Below are positions 20,001-53,438 of a stretch of 64,000 nucleotides of DNA, piece by piece. Numbering within the stretch: the first letter of the stretch is position 1; every line of letters starts with the position of its first letter. Source of the DNA: Lytechinus pictus (taxonomy: Eukaryota). The stretch covers positions 1,924,001 through 1,988,000 of the forward strand of contig NC_087252.1 in assembly GCF_037042905.1 (NCBI RefSeq). Reading direction: 5' to 3'. Below the pieces are notes generated by a model that saw nothing but the letters and a program-made list of their open reading frames with translations, ran no database searches and was not told the DNA's origin. A program made the translations under genes and the position numbers.

Positions 20001-20357
20001 AGTAAGTAATAGATGAATTGTGGATTTTTTAGACTACGGCAGCAATTTTGGGCGCCATCTTTTTCCTGGTACCCTGGAGTGCTAATATTCACTCTAATTT
20101 GTATAAATAAATTCTTTTACCCATTGGACCATGGAATATGAATCCAAATAGGATTCTAGGGTGGATAATGAGTGAGATATATCCATTTTTAGTGAATGGC
20201 GGCCATCTTGGACGCCATCTTGAAAATAACCACTTTCCCGGATGCGGATTTTGGTAGATTTTTAGTATGTTATTCCTGAGGTCAAATAGTACAAAATACC
20301 GTTGAAAAATCATTTGTTGCAATTTGTTCCGGGTCAAACCATATATTGACCCGTCTA
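17035..20357. mobile_element. 3.3 kb non-autonomous foldback DNA transposon, Academ-like
   Basis: TAGACGGGTCAATATA ... TATATTGACCCGTCTA termini with >300 bp TIRs and AAG on both flanks (3-bp TSD). Interior is ~175-180 bp tandem units, inverted in the two halves. Confidence 0.8.
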
Positions 20358-20569: not shown

Positions 20570-20670
20570 TTATATTGGCTGACAGACAGAGTGCGCAACA
20601 TATTTCTGTCTGGCTAACAAGGAGGTGTCTGCCATCTTACTACTTGGTCCACTGAATTGGAGAGTACCTC
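20570..20670 (-). CDS. Putative last exon of the receptor gene
   Basis: tttttttaag|GA gives phase-1 GGTLQFSGPSSKMADTSLLARQKYVAHSVCQPI*. No independent homology support. Confidence 0.35.
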
Positions 20671-26600: not shown

Positions 26601-28693
26601 TCATGATTAAGGTCTACTTTTTTCGCATAACTATTTCAAAGTTCTGCGCAAATAATTTTTCACTAACTTTTCAAAAACTAAGTGGTGCTCACTCAAGCAG
26701 AAATATTTTTCGACAGTTATTTCGTCATTTGCTTAAATGGATCTATACCAATGTAAAAATGTGGAAAAATCTTTAGGATATTACAAATGTATAATTTTAC
26801 AGGATTTTTTCTAAGTGTAAACTTGTTTTTGATACGCACTGTATTATCTACACATTGACTAATTGTACAAATTAAACCATAAATACCATCGCTCTTTGAC
26901 CTATCCGTCTTATGAGGTTGCATTAATTCTTCGGATTTTGAAGAGTCTTGAATGCCATCAGGAGGTGAAGGTCGCGAAGGTTCTGTGTTATTCCTTGTTT
27001 CAAGACCTGCAAGCAAATTTAAGTAAGAAAAAACTGTTAACTCATAATTATCTATCTCGTAAATTAATTATGACCATATAACTTTATTTAAGTTTCCATT
27101 AAAATCGTGTGGCAGTTTCCGGATTGTGTTTGGTGCATGTCATCATACTACCATGCTACAGTTGCATTCTGAACGAGACTCTCTCCAAACTGACTGACGG
27201 TGTGTCATTGCTGAGGACATATCACGTTTAATAGAGGGGTTGTGGCTCAGTGGATAAGTGTCCGGACTGTGAACTACAATGTTCGGGGTTCGAATCCCAT
27301 GCACAGTCACTCGCAACCTTTGGCAAGGCGTTCCCCAGCTAGGTGTAGTAAATTGTTAACTGGTAGGAAGGAATTCGTTGAATGCTCGAGCACCTAATCA
27401 GGTTAGCCATGTTAGCACGTGCAATATAGTAGGGGAAGGCGGGGGTAAGTTGAGCATAGGGGCAAGTTGAGCCACCACCCCCAGGCCAATAATGTGAGTC
27501 AGACCTTGTGGTGGTGTCATGTATCGATGACCCATTACATAACCCTTTACCCCACCACATTGTTTTCGACTTGGAAACAAAAAGTACTTTTTAGAGGGAA
27601 AAATACAAATTTCAGCCAAAAAAGTAAAAAAGGGTGCAAAATAGATCAGTGCTTTTTACCCACATACGTCTTTAAATATGATAAAGAAATAAGAACAATA
27701 TTGTTAGTCCAGGTATTGATCTTCATTCTTGGCATTGTCTTTTACGTGATGGATGCATAAGAAATGTGTGGATGTGAAAATATCGCATTATTTAAAGTTC
27801 GGACTGGGGTACTTTGAGCCAGCCAACATGGGGCAAGTTGAGCCATGGTAATTCGTATGGTAATAATATGGTATAATAAAAAAAGAAACAAACCTTGAAA
27901 AGCTAATGATATGCAGGCAGAAAGGTGCAAATTCACATGACAGTTCTTTTACTTTTAGAGGATGTTAGTATTTATAGAGAATAGGCAAGTGAAAAGACTT
28001 GAAATAAAAAATTGACATGCTGGTTCTTCCCGCATACATTTTGTACATAGTTTTTGTGGCTCAACTTACCTTACAAGGTGGTACAACCCACCCCACAGAT
28101 GGGGCAAGTTGAGCCATTTGACATCGGTTTTTTCAAAGGTCACAATGAATTTCCGAGTGTGGGGGTAGAAAGTTATTTATAGCTGACAAATATTTCGCAA
28201 GAATCAAATTTATAGGCAAGGTACTTATTTCTACAATATTATTAGTCATATCAATTCTAACATGCAAAATGCAAAAAGTGTCACAACTTACCCCGCCTTC
28301 CCCTATGTAGCGCTTTATAGAAACATTGTATCAAGCGCTGTATAAATGCTGCATATAATCATTATTGTTGTCATTATCATCATTATTATTTTTTTTTCTA
28401 CCCGGAGGTAGATTTTACTTATGCAACACTATCTTAAGTCTTGTAAAGCAAATATAGAAAATACAGAGGTATAAAGTAATGGTAACACATCTAGATTCAA
28501 ATTCAGAACAGTGGTAAAAACAATCTAATTGAAGCATACAGTTGCGCTCAAAAGGCAGGGCCCTGGGAACGATTTGTTCAGTGGGGGCGCTAAGATCTCT
28601 CCTCAAAGGTGGGGGGGGGGGCGGACACAATTGAGTTTTCCATTGTTCTTTTATATACACACACACACACATACACTCACCCTCACACACCCT

Positions 28694-28731
<38 letters not shown>

Positions 28732-31700
28732 AATATATGACAGTCACTTCTTAGCTTTATTCTTATAAAAGAACATAGATATATAATTAGATAATTCGAG
28801 CGCGAAGCGCGAGCTATTTTTTTTTCTCGAAATTTCATGTATTTTGTCCTGAAAATTGAACATTTTGAGCAATTTTTGTGGTCCTGAACAAGACGCGTAT
28901 ACGTGTAACAAATGATAAATGCGAGCGCGAGCAGATATTTTTTATATACGCTCTGGCCTGATCGAAAGGGACGTGTTATAAGGACTGTTTACAGTTACCC
29001 ATGAAGACGATACATATATCAAGAATCAAATAATGCGAGCGCGAGCAAAAAAAATGACATTCCGACCTAAATATTGGACATTCTAAGTACTTTTTAAAAT
29101 CATAAACAGGATAAGTATACAACTATACAATTGATGCGAGCGCGAAGCGCGAGCGAAAACAAAATTGAGATTTCAGACAAAAAAACAAGACATTCTAAGC
29201 ACTTTTCTAATCATGAAGAGAATAGGTATATAACTATACAATTGATGCAAGCGCGAAGCGCGAGCGGAAATAAAATGAGATATCAGACCTAAAAACGGGA
29301 CATCTTAAGCACTTTTCTAATCACGAACAGGATATGTACATGTAAGTATAAAACTATACAATTGATGCGAGTGCAAAGCGCGAGCGGAAACAAAATTGAG
29401 ATTTCAGACAAAAAAACAAGACATTCTAAGCACTTTTCAAATCATGAAGAGAATAGGTATATAACTATACAATTGATGCAAGCGCGAAGCGCGAGCGGAA
29501 ATAAAAATGAGATATCAGACCTAAAAACGGGACATCTTAAGCACTTTTCTAATCATGAACAGGATACGTACATGTAAGTATAAAACTATACAATTGATGC
29601 GAGCGCAAAGCGCGAGCGGAAACAAAATTTGAGATTTCAAACCTAAAAACATAACATTCTATTCATATTTTGTAAATCAAGAAAATGATGGGTAATTGGA
29701 TATCTTCCTATATTAATAATACGAGAGCGAAGCGCGAGCAGAAATTGTTTGATATTCTGATCTGAAACTATAATCTAAGTACGTTTAAAGGAGTAATTCA
29801 TACTGAGTTTAATATTGTTTGAACAGATAAAGAAAAAGCAGACAAACAAAAAAATAAAGATTTGATCAAAATCAGACAAGGAATATCAAAGTTATTGCAT
29901 TTTAAAGATTAGCATTATTCCGGTGTAACAGTGTTAGGCATGTCTTCATTAATATTCAATGAGCAAGCTGATGATGTCATATCCCCATTTGTTCTTTTGT
30001 ATTTTATTATATAAAATTAGGTTTATTCAATATAATCCCTCAAAGAAAAAAAAAAGGTGAATTGACAACTGATTTAGTCCATAAGATATTCTTTGCTGCA
30101 ACTCACTTCATTATAAGGGAGGCATATCATTCACACTGGTATGAAAAAAATGAAATAATTTTTTATTCCATGTAATAACATAAGAAAACGAAAAAGAATA
30201 GTGGGGATGTGACATCATCAACCCACCTATTAAATATTCCTGACGACATGCATATCACCCTTTTCAAAAAGTATTCCTAAATTTTAATTAAATAACTTAA
30301 CTATTTGTTATTTAAACACTATTTCAAGTACTGTGTCGGAAAATACCGAAGTGGGGGAGGGGGGGGGGGGGAGGTTTCTACAAAACGTCGTTAATTTTCA
30401 TTACAATTCTGTCATTTATCATACCTACCAGATTTCCAGGAGGTGCTGTCTATGAAAAAACTCGCAGCACCCTCGAATTTTGGGGGTGATTCACCGCCAG
30501 CACCCCAGGGCCATGGAGCAGGGTGAAAAAGACTCTGAAATTTTATTTCTATTGTCTGACTTGTAATTGTTAATACGAAACACGGGCGGTCGGGCACACT
30601 TGATTCGACATAAAACCTGGAAGTTTCAAATCCAACCACACCCATGTCCCTCCCTGCTATCGAGTAGTGTGTATGGTTATCACGTATCGCGCGCGACCAC
30701 GTCTGTATCGGAGCTTGATCGAGTTTATGTTATTGGAATGTTAAAGGCAGTAGTAAATGATTTGTAATTGTCGGATGTGATAATTATGTACATTATAACA
30801 AAACTTAAAATACAGGGGGAACCTATTTTGTGGGGGTGCTGCCCATGGAAAACAATACACGCAGCACCCCCACGAAAATTTATGGGGGTGCTTTAGCACC
30901 CAAGCACCCCCGCTTCCCAGGTCCATGTCAAAAGGTAGTGAACCCCACTACAAAATTCACTCCATGCGGAGAGTTGAATGTTGATAACAACGCTACATTG
31001 TTTGGCGAGCCGAAAGAAACAAACTAGATTGAATTTAATACTTTATCACCCGACTTCACAATAAAAAATGTCTAAAACTTGGCAGAACTTGAACACTTGA
31101 AATATGATCATTTTTCTGGTAGGGTTACTCTAACATTTGAGCACCACTGTCATGATTGTATTTAGCTCACCTTGTCAAGACGGTACCTATCATGACTTCA
31201 AGTGAGAAATCAACGAAACCTTCTTTCAGAATTCGATCACTGAGGAGAATGCGTTTCTGCAGATTAAATGGTTGACTTCTAAGTGTGTAAACCCACTGGT
31301 CAAGGACTTGCTTCAGGTAAGATATTCCTTCGAAGAGTTCGACACGAACTTCTAGGATCCGAGATATCCTAGATGCAACATCCTTCCTAGTTGCCTCTTG
31401 CATATCCTCGAGAATGACCTTGTTTTCAGAGTCGAGATGTTCTGGGTGATGAACATTAAGAAGAATTTATCCAATTTATAATCTAGTGATAACATCACTT
31501 AGCCATATCGATGAGCAAAATAATTCCCATGTGCGTCATCTTTCCAAGTTGCTCTGATAAGCGAGGGAGCGCAAAGGGTAAACTAATTAAACACAGTGAA
31601 CTGTCAACTGCACTACAAAATCCGCAAGAAATAAATCGTGTTCAAAATCATTGGCCCGATCTGGCAAATTATACTTACTGCTACTAAAGTGACGTCGTGA

Positions 31701-34536
31701 AATGACACCACTAATTTTTATATCATCATCAAAACATTTATCGCAAAAAAGCGTGTTCCAAAATTAATAACACATTATAATCTGCCATTAAAAGTATTGT
31801 AAATCCTATATTAGGCGCTACACATGCTTACTTAAAAAAAACCCAACACACAGTCAATCTGTAAGCAAAACATTTTATTTAATTTTAAATTTCATCTTGA
31901 ATTATTTATTAGCTTATTGTTTCTTAACTGTAAATAAAATATTTTTTTCACGATCATGAATGCATAATCCATATACCATTTTCTAGTAGTTTGGTCAGTT
32001 CAGCTGAAAAGGTCCCGAATCCTTTATCATGGAGGCGTTTGCACAATTGTTGACGTTGCTCCTTATTCTGGATTTGGCTTTTCACGGATTCTATAAAGAC
32101 CTTGAAGACATGCACGTAAGTCAGTTTGTCGTCCGAATAGATGTTCCTAACCCCTAAAATGTTGGCCATGATTAGGGCTTGTCGAGACATGATAGTATCT
32201 ACAAGATATTTCATGACGTTTCCAGCCTGCTTTCCACTGCGATGAAAGTTACCTGAAGATGATATATAAATATAGATTCCATATTACAATTCCCCTCTCC
32301 TTTTTTTTTGTCTAATTCGATTCAAAATATTTCGACTGAATTTAAAGAAATGCATTGTGATTATCATAAATACTAGCGTTGTTTGGTAGTCCGGATTGGC
32401 TGATAAATGTCCTGCTTTTTCAAATCTGGATAATTTTCTCCTGTAATGCTGGTATGTTTTGGTCTAACAAAAGGACATATCACCTGTAATAATTCCAAGC
32501 GCCTTTTCTTTCCCTAGAACTGGATAGACTGCCTCAGCCAGTGCTGTCCTCCAATTGTATATTGGGCATTTCACCAAAGACCTCCAATACCTCAGCATGT
32601 CCATGAGGTCTGTTACTTCTCTGTTTATTCCAAGATTCTGAAGAATTTCGTTGCGGTTCGCCTCTTTGGAACCTTCTCCAAAGCTGACGTCACACAGATC
32701 AGCGTATGATAATTCATATGCTATATAGAATGGAAAAACACGGAAAATAAAATTAATATCACACAGCCACACACGTTTTATACACTATGAAAATACTATA
32801 AAAATATTGGGTAAAATTTTAACCAGCACGACGGTAATTATGTGTCCAACCAATTTGGGGCGGTATTTTACCCAATGCGGGTAGCGTACTGTCTGTTACA
32901 TTTTGTGACTTTTGATTCAGTGACCAAGATGCTGTACATGTCATTTTATTTCTTTGTAATAAAGATAATAATTTCCTGTTGGGTATGTGATTACTAATGG
33001 ATATTGCACCATACCTGTGTACAAAATTGTTTATTTCTATGGGGGGAATTTTTGTGTGCAGCCTTTGAAAGAAGTGGGTACTTTCTTTTGCTGGCCAGTT
33101 TAGTTTAGGTCCATGAAATAGACAAGGATAAGGTTTCTAATTATGTTCTAAACTGTAGCTGCAAATTATAATTATGTACTATTCATCGTTTCATCAAAGA
33201 AAATGTGCACGGTTACAAAATAAAAATGACAAAATTGATTACCGTACTTCAGCAGATGACTAATTTCTGGGAAGCCTGGTTTTAGAATATTACACAGTTT
33301 TCTGCCCGTCTTTTTGTTTATCAAGACTCCTACTGTTCCTCTGGACATGATAGGAGTCAAATAAAGTCGTTTGTATGATCTTAGTTTGTCTTCGGATATG
33401 CCGAGGGCCCTGGCCAGTGGATACACATCTGTCATCAAGAGACGAAAGGCTATATCGACGAGCTCCATGAGATATAAATCTCCCTTGTTTTCCAATGGAA
33501 CGAGGGCTGCAGGGCATAAACGAAAAAAAAAAACTAACAAAACAAATAAAACCCCAATGAAATTATGGACACGTTCAATAAAATATTATGAACAATAATA
33601 TATAAAAAACAAAACATTGACCCATTTAACAATTATAAAATTCATATTTATTTGTACCACCTTAAGGGACTAGTTCACCTAAAAAAAGTTGATTTGAATA
33701 CAAATATAAAAATCTAACACGTATAATATTGAAAATGTCAAGAAATTTATTTTGAAATAAGAATTGTTTCACGTAATTTCAGTTATATACACACCCTGAT
33801 AGGTATGCAAATGAGGGAACTGATCACATCACTCACTCACTATTTCTTTTCATAGGCGGATCCAGCTTTTGGCGAAAGGGGGGGGGGCGCACTGCCGAGC
33901 GGCGCACATATTTTTGCACTTCACCGGCGCCAAAAGAAAATGTTGAAAAAGGGGTAAAATCTGACCCTATCAAATGCTCTTTTCAAAATGTAGGATTTCC
34001 AGTCATACCATTTTGCATGACCACACGCAGATAATATTTCCGGGGGGGGGGGGGGGGCAAGACTCGACAATTTGGTGCACATCTCACATTTGCATATTTT
34101 TCATAGTTTTCATGAAATGTTAAGGAAAAAAAATAGTTTTTCACAACAGCAGATCGCGAATGTGCCCCCCTTCCCCCTTGCTGCGTACGACCATTCCCTG
34201 AAGTCCACTTAAACATATTTCATTATAACAGAAAATATACATCAATTTAAACATATAATCTAAAACATATATAGAGAGAGATTGAAAAACTTATTAAAGA
34301 AAGAAACAAGCAAAAAGTAACACAAATTATGCATGTTATGTGCGATTTCAAAATCTCGTGTATTAACCCTTTTATTGCGATGAGGCCAATACTTTTGTAT
34401 ATTAATAGAGATACAAGTTTTTTTATACTAATGTATATATATATATACACAGGGGCGTCGATCCTTTTTTTAAGATTTGGGAGGCAAAATCATGAATCAA
34501 CTTTCCAAAGGCGCTCGATATCACACAAAACAAACT

Positions 34537-34573
<37 letters not shown>

Positions 34574-37500: not shown

Positions 37501-40021
37501 CTCATAGCACGGCACGAATATAATGCTTTCCCCTTTAAGCAGAAGCTTAGCCAACAAATTGCTTGCTGAAAAACGGAAAAATAGCATTTGGGGACTCGGG
37601 GGGGGGGGGGGGTGACGGTATAAAAGTTTACCCGCTCTGAACAGAAGAGCCGAAATTTTGTGTCAGTGCAATTAACAAAATGCTATTCATACTATCCATG
37701 TCAACTTTATAATTTCTGGCAAGAATGCGATTCCCATGGCCGGGGAAGGGAAAAAACGGAGTAGGATAAAGGTGTGGGAAACAAAGGGGAAAGGCAATTC
37801 TGATATTTTGTATGAAGAGAGAAATAAACATCTAATTTAGGTTTTTATTCTTTTGACATGTTTGACAAAAAGAAAGAAAAAACCAATTAAGCTATGCCCT
37901 TCTTCTCTTTTCTCCCTTCGCTTTTTCTTTTTCTCCCTTTTCCCCTTATTTTTTTCTTTTTGGGGGCGTTCGGGGGGGGGGGTGGGGCGACCGCCCCCAC
38001 CACCCCCTGGCTACGCACCTGCCGGGTGGACCTGAACGTTAATCTTTGCGTGAGACTTTGTGGAAAGACCTCGATCGTTTTTCTTATTCCCAGCCAGTAT
38101 GATGTTACATTTACCTTGTCTTTGCCTTACCTTCCTTTCCAATTAGTTTTAACTTTACTCGAAGCCTTTCTCTGCAGTTTGCCTGTCGATCTTCAGCTCG
38201 TTCCTTCTCCATCCAAGTTTTGATTGCAGAGAAACAGTCTTGTCCTTTAAGATCACCGAATAATGTTATCATTTCTTTTTGATCAAGATACTTTGTGATA
38301 CTTTGTATTTCACCATCACTAATACTGTCAGCAGGAAGGGCATCTGTAAAGAATTAGTATGGAATGCAATACTAAGAAAGACCAAATGAAAAAAAAAATT
38401 ATTCATAAGCTTTACATAATACATGTATAACAAAGGCGAATGTAAGGAGTTGGACAAAACTAATAGATTGTATTGTGAGTTGTAGATTGTGCTTTCGATA
38501 TAATTGCGAATGATAGATTTTGAAATAATATTACAAGGATGAAAATGTCAAATGCTCATGTAAATCATCTGAATCATCTTTTCGACAACTGCAGATAAAC
38601 AAATGAATTTCGTACAAAAGGGTATACATACCTTCAGCACGTTCTGTATCACATGCCTGTTTAATTTCTTCCTCGCGCTCCGGTATTAAGTAACTGCTAT
38701 ATCCGACCAAATAACCTACAGAATAAAGAAGCACAAAAATTGTATCAGTACATTATTGCATAAGTACATTTGTTTTTACTGTATTTGATATAATTTAAGT
38801 AGTATGAGTGTAGCTGATCAGCTGACGTGTGTCAATTATCAAACCAAGTTCTTGAAACCTGAATCTTCAATGTAACATACCTTTTAGATCAGAGCGTCCG
38901 ATACTAATTGCTGCGTGATCTAGTTCACATCTTCTGATAATATGATGGCTATTTTCCAAACTTTCCTTTTCTTTGGTTAAATCATCTTCACTCCTCTCTT
39001 GTTCAGTTTCCTCATGCCTCAGCCAATCGCCGATCATCGACTGAGTATCAAATACGTGTTCATTGTTTTCATCGCTGATGGTGGCGATCTTCTCATTGGT
39101 CAGTTCAAGAGCACTTGCCAAAATGTGACAATGTCTGCGAGTCAGCTTCGAGGTAAAGTATTGTAACTCCTCATTTGATATGGGTTGATCAGGTACTAGA
39201 GATACAAATACATGCGATTAAAATACAAATTAAAAGCCCGGTCTGTTAAATTACAGAATTAACGGTGTCGAAATAAAGTCAGAACAGAAGTAAACATGAA
39301 CGATCAGGAACTGTCGTACATCTTACATAAATGAATTAAAATGAATTGAAATGACTTAACCCTATCAAGGCAGGGAGGGGGGGGGGGTAGTATCGCGCAA
39401 TATTTTCGCCGCACAATGTTCTTTGACCGCGCCGCTCGCTGCCTTTTTCGTTTTAGGTCTTGTGCATCTTTTTTAAAACTAACTAAACGACGCCCAGGTA
39501 CGCGGCTCCGTAATTATGCACAATTCTGTTAGTGCATGTTAGACCAAAAATTGCTCAAAAATGTGATTTCGTGTACAAAGTCAAAGCAAATTCAGTTTTC
39601 AACCAAAAATCATTAATGTATGACTATATTTAGTTTTGCTGGTCTAAATGGATTTAATTATGCTGTTTATGATCTCTAATAAGTCCTCGACAAAGCTCAA
39701 TGAAAATAAAGAAAAACAAAAGTTACAAAAACAAACAAATACATTAAAAAATTGCAAAAGATCCATATAATACATACGAAATTGATCTACGTCGCAATTT
39801 TTTTCTTCATGAATTCGCTAAGAACGACACAGAGTAGTTTATACCAACAGTTAAAACATTTGGAACTTTATTTACGGAAGAAAAAGTATGACTTTGCATA
39901 AATTAACATAATCACTAATAGCAATTTGCATGAAATAAATTACTATTCATTTTTGTACATTACATGTATGTCACACACAACCTGCATGCCAATTTTCGGC
40001 GTGACCGCGCGATCGACGACC

Positions 40022-40055
<34 letters not shown>

Positions 40056-43000
40056 GGGGGGGGGGGCTTCAAGCCCCCATCCGGGCTACATAATATCCCA
40101 ATATACCCCGGCCTAGATCATGGAGATAGGGTTAAGGAAGATCATTTTCCGGGGAAAAGGTCAAACTCACCACAAAAGAAAGTTCTGTCGACTGGCGTGC
40201 ATTCTGCTCTCTCGAGAGCTAAACTCAGTATTGAAACTGGGTTTTCATCAAAACGTGTACTGGCCCACTTCTTCAATTCTTCCAATGATTTTGGTATCAG
40301 CTCCGATATCTTTCCAGTGTCCTCAAGGTCCTTTGGATGGGGATAATGAATGATCTCCGAGAGAAAGGTATTGATTTTCACTGGTTCTCCAATGTGCCAA
40401 AAAATATGCTCGAGCATTCTTTCGGAAACCATGATCGTCGAATTTGTCCGTACATCTATAAAAGGCAGAAACTCTATACAGTGCGTATCAAAAAAAAGTT
40501 TACACTTTGAAAAAGCCCTGGGAATTAAAAAAATATACAACATGTGGGTAATTTTTTCACATATATTCTTGGGTTTGGGTCTCATCTATCCAATTAAAGT
40601 AGAAGTTATGACAGAATGTTACACTTGAGTAAGCACTGTCCATTTTTGTAAAGCTCCCAGAAATCTGTTTGCGCAGAAATGCTCGTTTTCACGGGGAAGG
40701 GGAAAGGACGAAATCAAACTTACCCTGCGAAACATTTCTCATACATTTCCCTTGCACTTTTAGTCAATTGACATAAAACAAATCATACATTCAAGCATTT
40801 TGTAACAATTTTGCCACCCAAATTAAACTTTCAACACTTAGTAACTAAGCACAACCCTTACCCTTTTTGTGCCAGCTGGATCTGAGGACATAACTGAATC
40901 TGAACAAAAGTTAATTGCCGACATATCCAGCATTTTTCACTATGTTTTTATCATTTAAAGTGGGTTTACATTTCATTTTTAATGTAATACTTGTTTCTCC
41001 ACACTTTTCCCAAGCTTGAAAATGATTAACAAAATAAAAATCAAGCCTAAGCCATTTCATGTAAATCACAGTTCAGTGTAAGGCAAATATCGTCACGATG
41101 GCCTCGGTGTGTGGGGTAGTGAATGGGGCGCAATGCACTCTCTGAAGTGTTTTGGGCAAGGAAACAAGTTTAAAAAGGTAAAAGATATCTTCAAATAAAT
41201 TTTACTAGCTAAAATCCACGTGTTCTTCATGATTAGGGTCTACTTTTATTCGCATAACTATCTCAAAGTTCTGCGCAAATGATTTTTCACTAACTTTTCA
41301 AAAGTAAGTGGTGCTCACTCAAGCGGAAATATTTTTCGACATTTATATCGTCATTTGCTTAAATGGACCTGTACCAATGTTAAAATTTCGAAAAATCTTC
41401 AGGATATTACAAATGTATAATTTTACAGGATTTTTTCTAAGTGTAAACTTTTTTTCGATACGCACTGTATATCAGAAAAAAGGTAGATAGATGCTAAAAA
41501 TATATACTTTTACGTAAAGGCCGCCCGCCAACTTCCCCGGAATGTCGCAGTTTCTCTCCTGTTCCTGCTCTGTAACTCCATTTCACTTCTACCTCTATCC
41601 ACTTTTTGTAGTCCGTGTACACGATGTACCGTCAACCCCACCGCAATCCTTCATACAACTATGCAAACTTTAAAATATCAACCAAATCGATTTTTTTAGG
41701 AGGGGGGAGTTATTACTTCTTAATGCAGTACTTACCATAAATTTCTTTCCATGCGTCAGGGTATTTAGCTCTGTCTAAAGCTGTACTCAATTTCTGCGCT
41801 TGGTCGTATTCATCGTCGTGTGCCTTGCCTGCTTTCCACTGACACAAATGCTTGTAAGCCTCCGGGACTGTGAACACATCTTTCAATTTCCCGATACCTA
41901 GCTGTTCAAAGGTATCGTTCAATTTTCCCATATCAGACATGGTTACTTTAGACACCATCATCCAGAGCTCGTAAAAAGACAATTTCCCTGAGAGAATGAA
42001 TTTTGTATCAAAGAACAAAAGACTGATGCAAGTCTATAATAATCATGATCAATTCCATTATTATTAGATGCCGTTGCTAGGACTAGTCGGGTGTCTGGAA
42101 AACGAAGACCGAAGACCGGGGACTTATATCACACTCGTGTGAAAGCGTTTGTAGTTCACGCCCGAAGTGTGTACAAAGCAGTGCAAAGTGTGTACAAAAC
42201 ACGAACGCGGGTTAGAATGGACTTCGGACCTTGCCCCCTACACATGTTCTCCCATTGACCATGTTGACAATGCGCGGGTCCCCGGTCTTCGATCTTCGTT
42301 TTCCAAACCCGTTGTTGGGTGTCTGGAAAACGAAGACCGAAGACCGGGGATCGCATTCGTTTAGCTAAGATACCACTTATAAATGTCTTTATGAAGGCCT
42401 CTATTATTCAGCTCAAATTCAAGAATATTCTGATCTTGAATACATTAATATCAATAATTGGCTGATAATTAAGTCATATGAATTGCTTTGGGTGAATAAA
42501 TAGCAAAACTAGTATAGTTAATTTAGACCAGTTGAGGCGGGATAGGTCTACCAGTTTACACCACTATAAGACCACCAAGACCGGTAATAAACTCCAGTAA
42601 TCAAGACCAGATTCAAAATTCCAGTTAATTTAAGAACAACTCGAGACCAGTATACAGACCAATTAAATTTTAACTGGTCCAGCTAGTACAATGAACTGGA
42701 ACAGTTAGATCAGTATGACGTTGTTTCATTTTCCAGAGTTACATTAATCTGGTCCAGTGAACTTTGGCTGACATTAATTTGCAATTCTGCTACCATTGAC
42801 ATATAAGGCAGGTCCCCGGTCTTCGATCTTCGTTTTCCAAACCTGTTGTTGGGTGTCTGGAAAACGAAGACCGGGGATCGCGTCTATTCGTCTAGCTAAG
42901 ATAGGCCTATAATATTCAGCTCCAGTTTAAGAATATTCTGATCTTGGATACGTCATCAGCTATGATTGGCTGCAGATAAGTTATGGTTATTTGTGTGAAT

Positions 43001-46000
43001 ATCGTGATCAGCTAGGGCATGATTAATAAGGATAGATAACAATTATAACGTACATATTTCACCCACGGAATTCAGCCATTGCAATTCTGAAAAACCGAAG
43101 ACCGGGGATCGCATTCGTCTAGCTAAGATTCCACTTATGCCATCATTAAAGCCTTTATTATTCAGCTCAAGTTCAAGAATATTGTGATCTTGAATATATA
43201 CATTAACATCATTCATTGGCTGATAATTAAGTCATATTGATTGCTTGTGTCAATAAATATAGTTAGACCAGTTGAGGCGGGATATGTCTACCAGTTTACA
43301 CCACTATTCCACCGAGACAAGTAACAAACTCCATGGGGTCCCAAACCTATCATGTATTCTCATTTTGTTAAACTATGTAATATGTCTCTTGTTTTGATTG
43401 GTATAAATAAATTTGAACTTGAACTCCAGTAATCAATCAAGACCAGTTTCAAATTTCCAGTTAAAGGTTAACTCTAGACCAGTAATTTAAGACCAGTTTA
43501 TTTCTTAACTGGTCCAGTACAATGAACTGGACCAGTTAGACCAGTATGCCGTTGTTCCATTTTCCCTAGTTACATTCTGGTCCAGTGAACTGGTTTTTCC
43601 TACTTGGCTGACATCAATTTGCAAACTACCATTGACATATAAGGCAGGTCCCCGGTCTTCGATCTTCCAAAGATTTTCCAAACCTGTTGTTGTGTGTCTG
43701 GAAAACGAAGACCGAAGACCGGGGATCGCGTCTATTCGTCTAGCTAAGATGGGCCTATAATATTCAGCACCAGTTCAAGAATATTCTGATCTTGGATACG
43801 TCATCAGCTATGATTGGCTGCGGATAAGTTATGGTTGTTTGTGTGAATATCGTTATCAGCTAGGGCATAATTAATAAGGAAAGATAACAATTATAACGTA
43901 CATATTTTACCCACATAATTCAGCCATTGCAGTTCTGAAAACTTTAATAAAACTGAAAACTTGCATACAATACATCCTATATACTGCGCAATCACGTACG
44001 TACAACAGACTCAACTCAACTGGCGTTTGGAACTATTTTACCAACATTGACATTACGCATGTCCCCGGTCTTCGGTCTTCGTTTTCCAGACACCCAGGAC
44101 TAGTCACCCTATTTGATTCATGAATACAATTGAAGAAATGAGGCCATGTTCTCGAAGTGATCCTTTCACTTCTTTCATCTCTTCATTAAATTCATTTTGA
44201 CAACCATTAAAACACTTCATCAGTACATTTTTCCCCACATTTATGTCCTTTATTTTTGTTTTGTAATCATAGCTTCATATGCATGATATACATTATTTAC
44301 ATGATTATGCTAGTTCCAGTTTATAAATCTGATAGGATGTGTAAATTGTGTGTGACCTTTAATCTTCTTTATCATTTGCTCTTGAATTATTGTTTTTAAG
44401 GAAAGTCTTGTAAAAAGGGAGTCAATATCATGCACGCTATATCTCTCCATAGCGTCATTTAACATAATGCCACCATTTCAATAGGGCTATTGAGTTTGTA
44501 GATTAATCGATTTTAATCGATTAGAAGATCGCTAAAGGTATGCATCAAATATTCCAAGGAAAATGCGAAACTTACAACCATTAAAATGTGGTTGGTCCAA
44601 TTTTTAATAGCAAAGAATGCACTTATCAAAAGGGTAAGGGACGTATGTAATCATCCCCTTATCAATCCTTAAGCTTGACTGTGATAATACCTTTAATTTC
44701 CTTAGTTTCCATAAGAGGGTAACGTTCCTCTATGTCATCGTTACCAGACCCTGTTACGGGGAAGATACAGAGACATTTGAAATAAAAATAAATGTAAATA
44801 CATGTATCAAATGCAGTTCTAAATTACAGTAAATCATTGTTTTATTCCAATAATGCCAATTTCCCGAAAGCATATAAGCCATGTACCTAGCACCTTCCGA
44901 AACGGCACACAAGGAAAAGCTTTTATAAGTACACGTTTGTACCTTCCACTATTCCAGATAGATGGTCACAGAATTACATCTACAACATGACAACGGTCTT
45001 GCAAGAGCGACAAGGGGCATATAAAGGTGCTTGCAGTATTGGTAGCAACGTTTGAAAATGCAAAACATATTTTTTCTAACGTTTTGTAGAGCCTGCATCC
45101 ATTCTGTTCATTCTTGAATCTTGAATAAATAATCCCTTCTGCAGCTCATACTGGAAGCTAAACTGGGGTGGGTGCATGTGCAGTCAATGGCCGACGGTGA
45201 CGTTAGAGGTCATTTACAATAAAAAAGTGGAGGTGTGTGCAAGTAAAAACATGGCCATTCAGTTCACAATAACCGGAGTCCAGCAGTTGGCTGCACTGTT
45301 AGAAAATTTATCCTTAAAATGAAAAAAGTTCATGCAGCAGAGTCTCGAGAACACCTGTAATCTTACCAGATCATGTACAATTACAGGAAATTGGTATTTG
45401 GTGTATGGAACCTTACAAATTTCCTTTAATAAAACACCCTTTTCCCCCTTTTAAACAGACCTGTTCTGTTAAATTGCAGAAAAAAATCCTGTTTTATGAA
45501 TTTACAGAATGATTCTGTTATTGCTTTCTGCTAAATCTTCTTTTTTTCTATAAAATCAGGTTTTTTTTAAACAGTGTGCAAACTTCTGATAACTGGGAAG
45601 GCAGCCGCCAGGAAGATATAGTGAGGGAAGGTGTGTTGATAGCTACACTTCTCCGGTGATAATTTTATTAGAAATATTCTAATCATGTGTTTTTACATGA
45701 AAATCACACACAATTTATTCAAAATTGTATATATTCAAGATTTATTTACACCCCCACACCTACTTACATTAATTTCAGAGTTACTTACCTCGACGATGCC
45801 TTCGGAACCAGATCATGAATATGGAGGCACCAATTACTGTCACGAGTCCTAAACTTGCTAAAGGTATTACTGTTAGAGGAATAAGACATTCAATTATTAA
45901 CATCACATTATTCATTCAGTCACAATAACATTGTTTTGAATTGCTATTAGGGGTTCTTAATTTTATTCAGTGTATATTCACATCGATCATAGACACCAGT

Positions 46001-49000
46001 ACATATAGGACTATATTTTATAAAGAGGAAGAGCAATCGACGTCGGAATAGGCGGATGATAAATAATACGCTTAACAGCACAATTCCATCCCAAAGTTTG
46101 CATAAACCATTATAGCAATACATAATGTTTCAGTTTCATAAATTCACGGCAAATGAACGATATAATCGTTTCTGTTAACTGATTATCGATTCCACAATCA
46201 CACGGAAATACAAAGCTTTATTTATTGAAAACATATTAAAATAATTGTCATCTTGTTCATAGGTTATACAATTGCAGATGAAACTAAAAGGAAAATTCTC
46301 GATATCTCTGTGTCCATTATTTTGTTGCAGAAGAAACAAATGAAGGTGAGAACAAACAGAATCATAATGATAATTTTAATGATATCATGCTATCAACCAT
46401 CAGCATCCTTACCAATAACCATAAGGAGGTTTGTTCCCTTTGGTGGCATTGTTGTCATGGACGTTGATTCTTCGGGAGCCGAAGTTTGTTCTTCCGGAAG
46501 CCTGACAAATGCCGTCACCGCACTTTCCTTGTGGTGTCCAGGTAGATCTGATGCAACACACACGTATGGCCTTTCACTTGGAGCTGCAATAATTGAAACC
46601 GACTTGTTTCTGGTTTCATCGTTATTGATCCATTCTTTCGTCTCGGATGAAGCAATTTTCTCAGTCCCGTGCAAGAAGAACAGGTTCAGTTTTGGGTAAA
46701 AGCCAGAAGCATAGCAGATGAGGTTTACAGTGGTATGTGTGGTAATGGTACAACCGAAGTCTTGAACAAACGAAGAGTCATTGCACCCCTTAATGGCCGG
46801 GTAAGGTTCTCTAGGTGGCTCTTTGAAAAAGAATTGACCAATTACATGACCATTATAATGCATGATATAATATAATTGCAGGTATAACCTCTTCCCGAAA
46901 GAAAATCACAAATTATTTGTTTTCTTTATAATTTGTTCGGTCAGAACGGTTACTTAAAGGACAGATAATGTTTACTAATATGAGAAACAGGTACCACTAC
47001 AAGACCAAAACCAACATACTTATGATAAATAGACGGGAAATTACTTCTGCCCCTACAACATAAAAACATCACTCAACTTTGCGAGATAAAGTATTAATTT
47101 CTATCTTACCTACTACACTCAAGTCAGTAAAATTGTGGATTAGAAACCCGCGGTAGTTTGAAACTCGACATATGTAGCAGCCCTCATCTTTTATATGGGC
47201 TTCTTTGATGATCAGTGAATAGTTATTCGCTATCTCACATGAGTTATCTTCAGCACAAAGACCCGGCCATATCTTATCACCCATCCATGTCACCAATGGC
47301 GTTGCTTGCGCTGGGTCGTGTCCTTTCTTCCAGTAAACTGCTAAAGGTTCTCCGTAGAATTCGCAGTTCAAGACGGCAGTGCTTCCTCTGGGTATGGTTT
47401 TTAAGACATCTGTGTAGACGAACCCATCCTTGATATCTCCCATGATTCCTACAATTGCCGCAAACAAACAATGTACTATTTCATGAAACACCTTTTAGGT
47501 AATTTTACAAAATTTGGTCAAGGCCAGCCAAGTATTAAGATTCCAGGATCATAAATTTCTATTAGGCCTATATTCCTGAAAACCTTTTCTAAAAATGCTT
47601 CGCAAAGTACATGTACTGCCAAGGATTCTGCTGCAAACCAAAGCCATGAAACCTGTCAACCATGCAACCTCATGCTAAATGTTTGCGCTGGAAATTTTTA
47701 CTTTTGAATTGTTGATTAACTGTTTGAACTACAATTATCACTAGCGTATCAAGTATCAACAATGGCAAGAAAATTTAACGGCTCATACACAAGCATAGTA
47801 AAGTCACATTGTCCACAGACAATTGGGCGCATGAAATGTTTTGTAAGATCTGATGCTGGATACGCGCCTGGTTATTGCTATAATAACTGCGATAACTGTC
47901 ATTTTCTTATGATTCACCTATTTTGTAACTAAAAATGGTGGTTCAACAAGTTCCTTGTTGTGTAAGGTCCTGTGAGAAAAAAAATTATAGAAGTAAAAGT
48001 GACATGAAGAAGCGAGAAAGTGGAGGTTGAAAGGTAGAGATGTGTGTAGTCCTCTAAAAATACGGTATACCAGAAGGAGTGGATAGCTTGAGTAGTAGGT
48101 AGGATGAAATGATTGAGTAGAAGGCCCGTTGAGTTGGAGAGGTCAGAGCAGCTTGAGCAGGTGCGAGAATGCTGACTTGAGTCGGCGAGTGGAGTTATAG
48201 AGCAGGAGCTGGAAAGAAGACTCCAGCTTCTACGTATCGTAAACCACTTCAGAAGACGGACAGTCGACCTCCATTTCTTCATTTCACTTTTCTATCCACT
48301 TTTATTTTAGTCCCTTTCAGGACCTTGTACATGGCGTATCGTAAACCACTTCTAGGAATGTTCGTGATACCACTTCATTCATCCAAGTTCCTTGTTAGGA
48401 AATAAACTTTATACACACGCACACCCTCACCCACCTCCCGTCCCCCACACTTAATCACACACACAACCCCAAACACACACACCCTCACACCCAAAAGGTA
48501 TCCCATCGTGTGGATGAGGGAGTGTGTGTGTGGGGGTGATGGTGTGTGTGTGTATGTGTATCTACTTGTGCAATTTAGTTGTGGTCCCAAAAGCGTTTGA
48601 CGCTCGGACAGAAGAGGTATAAAAATTAATGTTTATATTTCATTGAATCTTGCTGTGAAAAAGTCGATGAAACTGAAAAGTTGGAAAATGTACTTTTCTT
48701 ACCTTCACCTTCGAAAGACTTCAATTATGCGATCCGTGGCAATGGTGATGCAAGCGTGCTGTCAAATAAGAGCTGATGTATGACTAAAAATTTTGCAAGA
48801 ATAAACTATCTAATTTTTCACAGCACTGGCAATTAAACCTCGGTAACCTCTTACAACAACACACATCCCATTGACCTTATTTTTCTTTTCTAAGTTCCAA
48901 ATTTGGGGGAAAAACAAAAATAACATAAAAATGGCTGTTTGTACTTCCGTAAAGACGTAGTCACCATAAATTTAATCACATCTATGATTAAAAAAAAAAG

Positions 49001-52000: not shown

Positions 52001-53438
52001 TTCGATGAAGAGCACTCCGTCGATTCACCGGTTGTCCCTACCGTACACGCGCGCCTATGGGGATAGTGAACTGTAGGAAAAATCGTATAAAATTACACTT
52101 TTTGATATTTCTACGAAGACGAAGTTATATAGAAAATGAAGAATATTACAATCAGACCATATCCCTAGAAAATTGCTTCAAGAAATGTCATTATGAAGAG
52201 GAAATGGACAAAAATTTGTGAAGAAAAATCACGAAAAAGGAAATCGCATCATGAATATTCATATCATGGGCGGTCCCACATTTGCATGTTATAGCGAGTT
52301 TTCCATTATTTAATAAATAATGGCATTATTTAATAAATAATGGCATTATTTAATAAATAATGGCATTATTTAATAAATAATGGTTATTTGTATATAAATA
52401 ATGATTATTTGTATATAATGGCAAACTGTAAAAATTGTTTATAAATAATGATTAATGGGATATTGAAACAAAATTATTATTTATAAATAATGAAGTAGAT
52501 ATTTCATTATTTAACAAATAATCTTTATTTATAAATAATGGAAAACTCGAACATTAAATAATGATTATTTATAAATAATGAGAATAATGGTGCACTCGAA
52601 AAAATTATTTATAAATAATGAAGTAGACGTTTTCATTATTTAACAAATAATCATTATTTATAAATAATGGAAAACTCAACAAATTATTTATAAATAATGA
52701 AAAACAAATAATCATTATTTATAAATAATGGAAAACTCAACAAATTATTTATAAATAATGAAAAACAAATAATCATTATTTATAAAGAATGAAAAACAAA
52801 TAATCATTATTTATAAATAATGAAAAACAAATAATCATTATTTATAAATAATGAAAAACAAATAATCATTATTTGTAAATAATGAAAAACAAATAATCAT
52901 TATTTATAAATAATGAAAAACAAATAATCATTATTTATAAATAATGAAAAACAAATAATCATTATTTGTAAATAATGAAAAACAAATAATCATTATTTAT
53001 AAATAATGAAAAACAAATAATCATTATTTATAAATAATGAAAAACAAATAATCATTATTTATAAATAATGGAATGTCGAACTATTATTATTTACAAATAA
53101 TGAAGTATTACTTGGAATTATACATAAATAATTAGAAATGATATTTTATATAATAGTAGTTATTTACAAATAAAATGTAAATTATATATAAATAATAGTT
53201 ATTATTTAATAAATAATGATTATATAACAAATAATTGTTCTATATAATATTGGTACATTCGGCGCCTCATAGTGTTCTATCAACCCTTTTCCCGACAGAA
53301 TTGTCCCGAAGAAAAAGACCCTAGACATTATACAAGAACAATTAATAGTTTGAGTAATTTTGATTAACTCTTACCATGAATGCAGTACAATAGCATAATG
53401 ATTGTCACACCAGGCCAAACAAGAATTCGACCCTCCAT
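20570..53438 (-). CDS. Multi-exon gene: SP - Ig(V) - Ig(C-like) - TM - ~8 tandem death-domain-like modules (~1100 aa)
   Basis: GT-AG exons joined in phase 1, each open in frame: 53438-53375, 47448-47110, 46820-46413, 45869-45789, 44750-44691, 41987-41736, 40455-40171, 39195-38881, 38715-38632, 38343-38131, 33506-33243, 32720-32484, 32252-31977, 31441-31187 (or 31171), 27006-26887 and, tentatively, 20670-20570. Confidence 0.8.
20973..22855. mobile_element. Self-nested Harbinger-like MITE cluster
   Basis: TTA|AGCCCCTTTCACAATTGACGTACGACC ... GGTCGTACGTCAATTGTGAAAGGGGCT|TTA. Second left TIR at 21389, extra right TIRs ending 22102 and 22574. Confidence 0.8.
23029..26841. mobile_element. Tc1/mariner-like MITE (TA TSD) split by a LINE
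   Basis: TA|CAGTGCGTATCAAAAA ... TTTTTGATACGCACTG|TA. Intact copy at 40479-41467. Confidence 0.85.
23487..26320 (-). mobile_element. Decayed L2/CR1-group LINE ORF2 (APE endonuclease + reverse transcriptase), 5'-truncated
   Basis: VTESWL, VYRPP and IVGDFNIH (endonuclease); NYRPIANL, LDYSAAFDT, GVPQGSVIGP and YADDTQIY (RT). Split by stops and frameshifts over four ORFs. Confidence 0.93.
26887..27006 (-). CDS. Low-complexity C-terminal exon
   Basis: ttgcttgcag|GT CTT GAA; the same acceptor is conserved in the paralog at 58748. GLETRNNTEPSRPSPPDG... Confidence 0.6.
27235..28388 (+). mobile_element. tRNA-derived SINE interrupted by a MITE
   Basis: tggctcagtgg A-box and ggttcgaatccc B-box. Tail agcgctgtataaat + (CAT/TAT)n resumes after 28305. 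Confidence 0.75.
27432..28303. mobile_element. Tc1/pogo-like MITE with TA TSD
   Basis: TA|GGGGAAGGCGGGGGTAAGTTG ... CAACTTACCCCGCCTTCCCC|TA, with internal ggggcaagttgagcc repeats. Confidence 0.85.
28556..30927. mobile_element. hAT-like non-autonomous element with internal tandem repeats
   Basis: 8-bp TSD TCAAAAGG on both sides, CAGGGCCCTGGGAA...TTCCCAGGTCCATG ends. (CA)n/(TA)n plus ~120-bp units containing gcgcgaagcgcgagc at 29120-29720. Confidence 0.75.
31187..31441 (-). CDS. Exon: death-domain-like module 8
   Basis: ISRILEV...LKQVLDQWV...RILLSDRILKEGFVDFSLEVMI. Paralog at 60872-60603. Donor either G|gtaccg (31187, phase 1) or AG|gtgagc (31171, phase 2). Confidence 0.75.
31977..32252 (-). 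CDS. Exon: death-domain-like module 7
   Basis: QALIMANILGV...RQQLCKRLHDKGF. 276 bp; paralog at 62023-61757. Confidence 0.75.
32484..32720 (-). CDS. Exon: death-domain-like module 6
   Basis: ILQNLGI...MDMLRYWR...RTALAEAV. 237 bp; paralog exon of identical length at 63130-62894. Confidence 0.8.
33243..33506 (-). CDS. Exon: death-domain-like module 5
   Basis: ELVDIAFRL...VYPLARALGISEDKL...KLCNILKPGFPEISHLLKY. 264 bp. Confidence 0.75.
33851..36273. mobile_element. Nested CA...TG element (possibly composite)
   Basis: cataggcggatccag ... ctggatccgccactg ends with CTTTT on both flanks. Contains a gcgcgaagcgcg-family piece (34450-35160) and a tandem array. Confidence 0.5.
35535..36020 (+). repeat. 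Minisatellite, ~40-45 bp units (ggcgccgatttagaaccaggtggcgctgattattcttgact-like)
   Basis: About 11 diverged tandem copies visible. Confidence 0.8.
36684..38021. mobile_element. hAT-like non-autonomous element
   Basis: 8-bp TSD CCGGGTGG (36676-83, 38022-29). Ends caatcgcgtagccagg ... cctggctacgcacctg. Confidence 0.8.
38131..38343 (-). CDS. Exon: short death-domain-like module 4
   Basis: ISDGEIQSITKYL...AIKTWMEK...RERLRVKLKLIGKE. Boundaries tttacag| and |gtaagg, 213 bp. Not in the ORF track. Confidence 0.7.
38632..38715 (-). CDS. Short linker exon
   Basis: ctgtag|GT...GAA G|gtatgt, 84 bp, open frame. Confidence 0.55.
38881..39195 (-). CDS. Exon: death-domain-like module 3 (most canonical)
   Basis: ISNEELQYFTSKLTRRHCHILASALELTNEKIATI...MIGDWLR...AAISIGRSDL. 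315 bp. Confidence 0.8.
39360..40131. mobile_element. piggyBac-like MITE
   Basis: TTAA|CCCTATC ... GATAGGG|TTAA. A similar right end is at ~14320-14342. Confidence 0.8.
40171..40455 (-). CDS. Exon: death-domain-like module 2
   Basis: VSERMLEHI...LEELKKWA...ILSLALERAE. 285 bp, boundaries ttttatag| and |gtgagt. Confidence 0.72.
40479..41467. mobile_element. Tc1/mariner-like MITE, intact copy
   Basis: TA|CAGTGCGTATCAAAAAAAAGTTTACACTT ... AAGTGTAAACTTTTTTCGATACGCACTG|TA. Confidence 0.88.
41736..41987 (-). CDS. Exon: death-domain-like module 1
   Basis: ...QLGI...AYKHLCQWK...KLSTALDRAKYPD. 252 bp, phase 1-1. Confidence 0.75.
42089..44095. mobile_element. Mutator(MULE)-like modular non-autonomous element
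   Basis: Perfect 10-bp TSD AGGACTAGTC. 35-bp TIR GGGTGTCTGGAAAACGAAGACCGAAGACCGGGGAC, repeated internally in both orientations. Confidence 0.8.
44691..44750 (-). CDS. Short juxtamembrane exon
   Basis: cag|GG...AAA G|gtatt, GSGNDDIEERYPLMETKEIK, 60 bp, phase 1-1. Confidence 0.65.
45294..45576. mobile_element. EnSpm/CACTA-like MITE
   Basis: TG|CACTGTT ... AACAGTG|TG (2-bp TSD). Confidence 0.6.
45789..45869 (-). CDS. Exon: transmembrane helix and basic stop-transfer
   Basis: (LLMVI)VIPLASLGLVTVIGASIFMIWF-RRHRR. Boundaries ctaacag| and |gtaagt, 81 bp. Not in the ORF track. Confidence 0.88.
46413..46820 (-). CDS. Exon: second Ig (C1/C2-like) domain plus S/T-rich stalk
   Basis: VNLICYASGFYPKLNL...YVCVA. 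Boundaries tttcaaag|AG and G|gtaag, 408 bp. Confidence 0.88.
47110..47448 (-). CDS. Exon: Ig V-type domain
   Basis: GSTAVLNC...VYWKK...YSLIIKEAHIKDEGCYICRV. Boundaries ttgtag|GA and G|gtaag, 339 bp. Confidence 0.9.
49032..53271. mobile_element. 4.24 kb near-perfect palindromic element with IS3EU-like ends
   Basis: 6-bp TSD GTGTTC (49026-31, 53272-77) and TATGAGGCGCCGAATG...CATTCGGCGCCTCATA termini. Arms are reverse complements over ~1.9 kb. No long ORF. Confidence 0.88.
49230..50040 (+). repeat. AT-rich minisatellites in the left arm (~30-bp ttttcattatttataaataatgattatttgt-like unit; 20-bp ccattatttattaaataatg); mirrored at ~52300-53070
   Basis: Directly visible tandem arrays with internal palindrome CATTATTTATAAATAATG. 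Confidence 0.9.
53375..53438 (-). CDS. Exon 1 of Ig-TM-death receptor: signal peptide
   Basis: caacATGG context, MEGRILVWPGVTIIMLLYCIH G|gtaag. The phase-1 join to the Ig exon gives ...CIHGIMG-DIK, a plausible cleavage site. Confidence 0.75.

What the first reader, a model, noticed from the sequence alone, without database searches (positions are those of the whole stretch)
20570..53438. Hidden receptor gene: two Ig domains + TM + about eight tandem death-domain-like modules
Seen: up to 16 GT-AG exons that splice in one frame, all phase 1, to ~1100 aa with signal peptide, Ig-V, Ig-C-like, TM (…IWF-RRHRR) and eight 70-105 aa helical modules. The modules share death-fold hallmarks: L(A)xxLG/LE helix, a conserved W in six modules (LCQWK, LKKWA, IGDWL, IKTWM, LRYWR, LDQWV) and a terminal LxxAL helix. 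Known: death receptors (TNFR1/Fas, p75NTR) and the Ig-containing UNC5 carry a single death domain, and death domains signal through helical oligomers (Myddosome, PIDDosome, DISC). Inference: this may be an undescribed innate-immune/apoptotic receptor class whose tail is a covalently pre-linked death-domain scaffold. I know of no characterised receptor with this architecture.
Basis: partly seen in the sequence, partly recalled or inferred. Interest (0 to 1): 0.92.

Follow-up and report, generated by a model that had tools for sequence, protein, structure and literature searches.

The report
Sea-urchin receptor with eight death folds
This is a real sea-urchin gene for a cell-surface immunoglobulin-type receptor whose inner tail is a chain of eight death-domain-like modules predicted to pack into one body; it belongs to an uncharacterised sea-urchin gene family and may signal immunity or cell death in an undescribed way, but nothing here tests its function.

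Summary
The gene is real, on the minus strand. Fourteen phase-1 exons encode signal peptide, IgV, IgC, TM, a linker and eight helical modules A-H, one per exon, plus one small exon. The window appears to be Lytechinus pictus: it also holds the last four exons of a tandem paralog (RefSeq LOC135154835, 1105 aa, same architecture). S. purpuratus LOC105437304 has the same A-H order. This genome has 33 strong IgV matches; 27 of 30 relatives looked up are echinoids, 3 have no organism. The gene is under purifying selection (dN/dS 0.45). AlphaFold2 folds all eight modules confidently, and the B-H tail gives pTM 0.82, suggesting one packed body. In a fold search, 44 of the top 50 hits are death folds, matching modules B, D and F. 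C passes the Pfam Death cut-off in five relatives; A, E, G and H link by profile comparison only. Six modules lack helix 3, so canonical Myddosome geometry is not shown. IgV is more conserved than the tail. Function and expression of this copy are untested. Ten literature searches and three scan look-ups found no description of the family.

The parts
53375..53438 (-). Exon 1: ATG and signal peptide
   Evidence: 71% identical to P0002 N-terminus
47110..47448 (-). Exon 2: Ig V-type domain
46413..46820 (-). Exon 3: Ig C-type domain plus Ser/Thr/Pro stalk
   Evidence: weak Pfam ig E 0.008, C1-set 0.052; beta-sandwich in AF2
45789..45869 (-). Exon 4: transmembrane helix and basic stop-transfer
   Evidence: helix 277-304 of P0002
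44691..44750 (-). Exon 5: short juxtamembrane linker
   Evidence: 95% identical to P0002; TM-to-linker joint of the paralog in run X2
41736..41987 (-). Module A (5 helices; death-fold by profile link to B and D)
   Evidence: hhalign A~B 85%, A~D 81%; AF2
40171..40455 (-). Module B (death fold, no helix 3)
38881..39195 (-). Module C (most canonical death domain; 19-residue insertion in this copy and its closest relatives)
   Evidence: Pfam Death E 0.016 here, under cut-off; above cut-off in P0030, P0049, P0119, P0120, P0124; insertion seen
38632..38715 (-). Small exon: one helix and linker after module C
   Evidence: 74% identical to P0002; absent from P0008
38131..38343 (-). Module D (reduced death fold, 4 helices)
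33243..33506 (-). Module E (retains a short helix 3, lacks the W)
   Evidence: hhalign E~F 76%; AF2
32484..32720 (-). Module F (death fold, no helix 3)
31977..32252 (-). Module G (duplicate of H type)
   Evidence: hhalign G~H 98.5%
31171..31441 (-). Module H; two candidate donors (31187 in phase, 31171 homologous to the paralog's but out of phase)
   Evidence: hhalign F~H 92%
26887..27006 (-). Probable terminal exon (low-complexity), homologous to the paralog's last exon; runs into a repeat
   Evidence: repeat family D20 at 26669-26844
20570..20670 (-).
58630..63130 (-). Last four exons (F, G, H, tail) of the upstream tandem paralog, identical to RefSeq LOC135154835 (P0002)

Best explanation
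A type I membrane receptor of an echinoid-expanded family. SHOWN: SP-IgV-IgC-stalk-TM followed by eight exon-encoded modules in a fixed order A-H, kept between Lytechinus and Strongylocentrotus, with C-H in Diadema. PREDICTED: each module is a divergent death fold, and the chain folds back on itself into one rigid multi-module body rather than beads on a string. INFERRED mechanism: ligand binding or cell contact at the fairly conserved IgV clusters the receptors; the tail is a ready-made platform in which the helix-3-less modules (A, B, D, F, G, H) act mainly as packing units and the more complete modules (C, E) offer docking surfaces for death-fold adaptors (FADD/RAIDD/MyD88-like or DD-caspases), leading to cell death or NF-kB-type signalling. 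Phase-1 exon duplication and loss change the tail between paralogs.
For: Same architecture in RefSeq models of L. pictus (P0002) and S. purpuratus (P0123), all eight modules matched in order. dN/dS 0.45 over 988 codons against the paralog, Fisher p 6e-12; ectodomain 0.35, A-C 0.54, D-H 0.45. AF2: P0002 pLDDT 79.4, pTM 0.67; P0008 B-H pLDDT 85.8, pTM 0.82. 44 of the top 50 of 48,161 chains are death-fold entries by title. Pfam Death above cut-off in 5 of the 42 distinct relatives scanned singly; ESM Atlas top three hits for A-C are Death clusters, score 0.83-0.84, a lead only. Profile links join all eight modules. C and E recur in the V-V-C subfamily, which lacks B. Echinoderms have FADD, DD-NLR and DD-caspase acting in coelomocyte death (PMC13673367, passages) and an Ig-TM-NACHT membrane receptor (PMC8699970, passages).
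Confidence: 0.55

Rival explanations
1. Inhibitory or decoy receptor: the degenerate death folds sequester adaptors or cap DD filaments (like cFLIP/vFLIP, PEA-15, POP proteins) when the Ig domain sees self, damping coelomocyte death or activation.
For: Modules are degenerate and most lack helix 3; IgV is more conserved than A or B across 12 paralogs (55% against 34% and 31%, 66 pairs), as a shared self ligand would give; vFLIP, PEA-15 and cPOP1 are among the fold matches.
Against: Fold matches do not give the sign of signalling; activating DDs (PIDD, FADD, RIPK1) score as high or higher. No ITIM-like motif is shared: 4 of 7 tails scanned had one, at different places.
Confidence: 0.2
2. Auto-inhibited dependence or guard receptor: the tail is a closed stack, as ZU5-UPA-DD is in UNC5B (recalled), and fast-evolving modules act as bait; cleavage, ligand loss or a pathogen effector opens it and exposes module C or E.
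For: Single packed body predicted (pTM 0.82); tail diverges faster than the ectodomain; module number varies between paralogs.
Against: No exon has dN/dS above 1 in the one pair tested; no cleavage site or opening was tested.
Confidence: 0.13
3. Adhesion or recognition molecule (nectin/butyrophilin-like V-C ectodomain) whose death-fold tail is a structural rod that binds cytoskeletal or trafficking partners, with no role in death or immunity.
For: Ectodomain folds like nectin, butyrophilin, Lutheran and CEACAM V-C pairs; death folds also occur in non-apoptotic scaffolds such as ankyrin G and p84 (rows).
Against: Tandem clusters, copy-number expansion and mosaic paralogs (dS 0.14-0.18 in the 5' half, 0.42 in the 3' half) are more typical of immune families (general knowledge).
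Confidence: 0.1
4. This particular copy is a young pseudogene of a functional family.
For: One-base shift at the last module's donor; terminal exon followed by a repeat and a broken LINE-like element; no identical protein returned.
Against: Fourteen exons, 3.1 kb, are free of stops and frameshifts with intact AG/GT ends; dN/dS 0.45. This rival concerns this copy only and is compatible with the other readings of the family.
Confidence: 0.12

Closest known systems
UNC5 netrin receptors (Ig-Ig-TSP-TSP-TM-ZU5-UPA-DD; architecture recalled)
   Different: No TSP1, ZU5 or UPA found by Pfam; eight death folds instead of one; an expanded clustered family.
Death receptors of the TNFR superfamily (Fas, TNFR1, p75NTR) and their DISC / complex I assemblies
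   Different: Ig ectodomain, no TNFR cysteine-rich repeats by Pfam; many covalently linked, mostly helix-3-less modules.
Myddosome / PIDDosome helical DD assemblies
   Different: Here one polypeptide with linkers of a few residues and eight different modules; helical geometry was not tested.
Tandem death-fold proteins (caspase-8 and vFLIP tandem DED, RIG-I 2CARD)
   Same: Covalently linked death folds with short linkers.
   Different: Cytosolic, two modules only; they align over 70-78 residues (one module), not two.
AjNLRC4 / holothuroid Ig-TM-NACHT receptors (PMC8699970 and PMC13673367, passages read)
   Same: Echinoderm membrane receptor joining extracellular Ig domains to a normally cytosolic immune module.
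   Different: NACHT instead of death folds; homology of the Ig domains was not tested.
Automatic database models of this family (LOC135154835/37/38/41/42, LOC105437304, LOC105438791, Diadema models)
   Same: Same family; a few carry an automatic Pfam Death or UniRef 'Death domain-containing protein' label.
   Different: All are named 'uncharacterized'; at most the C module is recognised; several models are truncated or fuse neighbours.

Membership tests
Death-fold superfamily (DD/DED/CARD/PYD) | Structural match to solved death folds | tested here: met
Death-fold superfamily (DD/DED/CARD/PYD) | Structural match for modules A, C, E, G, H | tested here: inconclusive
   Not shown as best ranges; A not in that model; linked by profiles
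Death-fold superfamily (DD/DED/CARD/PYD) | Six-helix bundle including helix 3 | tested here: not met
   DSSP on AF2 models: a helix at the helix-3 position only in C and E; A, B, D, F, G, H have 4-5 main helices (helix numbering inferred from motif positions)
Pfam Death (PF00531) | Score above the gathering cut-off of 22.6 | tested here: inconclusive
   This copy's module C 15.8 bits, P0002 20.6; relatives P0030 26.7, P0049 25.8, P0119 25.5, P0120 26.9, P0124 23.8
Death receptors (TNFRSF) | TNFR cysteine-rich ectodomain | tested here: not met
   Ectodomain is IgV + IgC
Death receptors (TNFRSF) | Recruits FADD/TRADD and triggers caspase activation | not testable with these tools
   No experiment possible
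UNC5 receptors | Two Ig domains, TM and a cytoplasmic DD | tested here: met
UNC5 receptors | TSP1 repeats and ZU5-UPA | tested here: not met
   No such Pfam hit in P0002 at E<=1; the AF2 tail is all helical
Myddosome/PIDDosome-like helical DD assembly | Type I/II/III interfaces in helical array | not testable with these tools
Immunoglobulin superfamily, V-C type I receptor | V-type domain, C-type domain, single TM, signal peptide | tested here: met
Diversified pattern-recognition receptor family (variable ectodomain, conserved tail) | Ectodomain more variable than the signalling tail, or under positive selection | tested here: not met
   IgV 55%, IgC 42%, A 34%, B 31% mean identity over 66 pairs; IgV dN/dS 0.30 in one paralog pair

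The most novel reading that the evidence does not exclude
An undescribed receptor class in which a whole death-domain signalosome has been fused into the receptor: eight different death folds, each one phase-1 exon, stack in one chain into a pre-assembled nucleation platform (a single-chain Myddosome/PIDDosome analogue). It fires on simple dimerisation or on opening of the stack, and sea urchins tune or diversify it by duplicating exon pairs (AB x1-3) while keeping the Ig sensor nearly constant, so that variability sits inside the cell.
Probability: 0.3. Interest if true: 0.88.

Novelty: new variant of a known kind. Interest (0 to 1): 0.72.

Why it matters
Known death-domain receptors carry one DD and must assemble a multi-chain platform (recalled). 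A receptor family with five to eight covalently linked, ordered death folds would be a natural single-chain model of such platforms and makes questions about nucleation thresholds and interface order directly testable. It also adds a family of about 30 Ig receptor genes to the sea-urchin immune or cell-death repertoire, missed because Pfam sees at most one of the eight modules, in a species used as an immune model (PMC11688612, abstract start in listing).

Tried and rejected
Sequence-profile searches of six module alignments against PDB chains (A, B, C, E, F, G/H; D had no alignment): no death-domain chain at E<=10. Foldseek on the full model was filled by Ig hits, as was VIA; Foldseek on the tail model gave nothing at E<=0.001 in PDB or in viral structures (best row a Marseillevirus 'Death domain-containing protein', E 0.016, TM 0.11, not taken as evidence). 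Complex prediction of modules A and B as separate chains: no answer, alignments not used, partner fold uncertain. ESM Atlas on E-H: best 0.82, unnamed archaeal clusters, a Death cluster at rank 4; lead only. Sequencing runs: no RNA holder listed; contigs of two runs laid at 85% likeness mix paralogs and repeats, with tables cut, so only the paralog's TM-to-linker joint and exon-bounded pieces with 16-29 differences are usable. Alignment A1 (84 rows) piled fragments together and was not used for folding or profiles; it was used only for member-by-member Pfam scanning (16 of 84 with Death at E<=0.1; 13 of 95 at E<=0.05 in A9). A micro-exon reading of the 14 letters in the joint was rejected: they are the end of the paralog's TM exon. 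Two ORFs at 44107-44477 are not extra modules. One alternative-donor length used a wrong coordinate and was redone. Models P0001, P0030, P0119, P0120 (tail before Ig) and P0006, P0126 (Ig plus very large GTPase) were read as probable fusions of neighbouring genes, not tested. Literature: ten searches gave no paper on this family in their listings; PMC11688612 had no occurrence of 'death', 'immunoglobulin' or the LOC prefixes in its main text; PMC3707132 (Rast 2006) is not held; Hibino 2006 and Robertson 2006 were seen only as citations, and their gene tables or supplements could list these models. No supplements were read.

Full report
Observation. Reading the region and testing splice sites gives 16 AG/GT exons that keep phase 1 and splice to 1117 aa ending at 20570. 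Nine open phase-1 exons of at least 205 nt lie in 31000-47500 on the minus strand; 200 Markov resamples give a mean of 0.22 and at most 2, and the plus strand gives 1. Exons 1-14 are supported by homology; the last two are not supported as internal and final coding exons. Exon 15 aligns with the paralog's terminal exon, exon 16 has no homolog among held proteins, and the donor that the paralog uses after module H is one base out of phase here, which would end the protein at 1051 aa. The eight modules, which I call A-H, are unaffected.

Identity and family. The IgV exon retrieved 7 proteins among 30 candidates, including L. pictus LOC135154835 (P0002, 1105 aa). No protein identical to this copy was returned (best per-exon identities 59-95%). 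In the genome, IgV gives 37 matches of 89 scored, 33 at E below 1e-21: nine at C8 1.97-2.28 Mb, six at 13.7-14.0 Mb, four at 18.4-19.0 Mb, nine at 23.6-27.9 Mb, one at 38.9 Mb, two on C10 and two on C11. Module searches gave A 20, B 25, C 14, E 20, F 6 and H 5 matches (lower bounds). Whether the 23.6-27.9 Mb Ig genes have tails was not examined. Modules sit in their own phase-1 exons at other loci too (A 23 of 25, B 22 of 26 with both splice sites near the domain ends). A tail profile found 103 proteins among 1.84 billion representatives. I looked up 30 of the 103: 27 map to L. pictus, L. variegatus, S. purpuratus, Diadema antillarum or D. setosum (one through a cluster member) and 3 carry no organism. 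S. purpuratus LOC105437304 has IgV-IgC-TM-A-B-C-D-E-F-G-H; D. setosum P0037 has C-H. Other members repeat the A-B pair two or three times, stop after C, or have two IgV domains and start at a C-like module. These are automatic gene models and some are truncated or fused.

Selection and expression. Against the paralog, dN/dS is 0.45 over 988 codons (p 6e-12), below 1 in all 12 exons compared, highest in G (0.83) and B (0.76). dS is 0.14-0.18 in the 5' half and 0.42 in D-H, which suggests conversion or a chimeric origin. Across 12 family proteins IgV is more conserved (55%) than IgC (42%), A (34%) or B (31%), the reverse of a variable-sensor, constant-tail family; death domains diverge fast in general (recalled), so this is suggestive only. 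No RNA holder was listed. In the two runs laid, one contig joins the TM exon to the linker exon with letters that belong to the paralog's TM exon, and some contigs match single exons end to end with 16-29 differences. This shows splicing of the TM exon to a cytoplasmic exon in the paralog or a close relative, not expression of this copy.

Mechanism. Shown: architecture, conservation, purifying selection, family expansion. Predicted: death folds and a packed tail. Inferred: the receptor clusters through IgV, and the tail is a pre-linked platform in which the more complete modules C and E dock death-fold adaptors while the reduced modules hold the geometry (0.55). Rivals are an inhibitory decoy (0.2), an auto-inhibited guard or dependence receptor (0.13) and a non-immune adhesion molecule (0.1). 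Separately, this copy may be decaying (0.12).

Comparison and novelty. It works most like a death receptor fused to its own DD platform, but it is not a TNFR-family or UNC5-family member (cysteine-rich repeats, TSP1 and ZU5-UPA not found). AjNLRC4 is an echinoderm precedent for Ig-TM joined to a cytosolic immune module (PMC8699970, passages; PMC13673367, passages). PMC2858798 (passages) describes expansion and domain shuffling of NLR and TIR families in sea urchin; the passages shown did not mention this architecture. Ten searches listed no paper on it. The 2006 sea-urchin immune and apoptosis catalogues could not be read and may list some of these models. Three look-ups of earlier scan notes showed other death-domain families in this genome but not this one. 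Verdict: real, a new variant of the death-domain receptor kind with an architecture I could not find described; function untested. Interest 0.72.

Noticed in passing
window:49031-53272: 4.2-kb foldback-like element in intron 1: near-perfect long inverted arms (97-100%) built of AT-rich 31- and 20-base repeats around a GC-richer core, flanked by the same four bases on both sides.
   Followed up: partly
   Followed up: partly
window:12700-13743 (+): Intronless ORF pair: signal peptide, weak V-set (E 0.004), a Cys-rich segment and a TM-like stretch, interrupted by a frameshift near 13210 and a stop near 13387; possibly a broken single-exon Ig-TM gene unrelated to this family.
   Followed up: partly
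window:1229-3583 (+): 785-aa open frame with many C2H2 zinc fingers.
   Followed up: no
window:17433-18995 and 19600-20334: About 175-base tandem repeat array with inverted copies downstream, transposon-end-like.
   Followed up: no
P0006, P0126: Database models join this family's Ig exons to an interferon-induced very large GTPase; probably neighbouring genes fused by prediction, hinting at linkage with immune GTPases.
   Followed up: no
G000:C325:9228-21547 versus C8:2009487-2021806: A small contig repeats one family gene with identical match scores; likely an unpurged haplotig or very recent duplicate.
   Followed up: no
BFVD A0A481YZ84: Top, non-significant viral fold match to the tail is a 658-aa Marseillevirus 'Death domain-containing protein' (E 0.016); it may be another multi-death-domain chain.
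   Followed up: no
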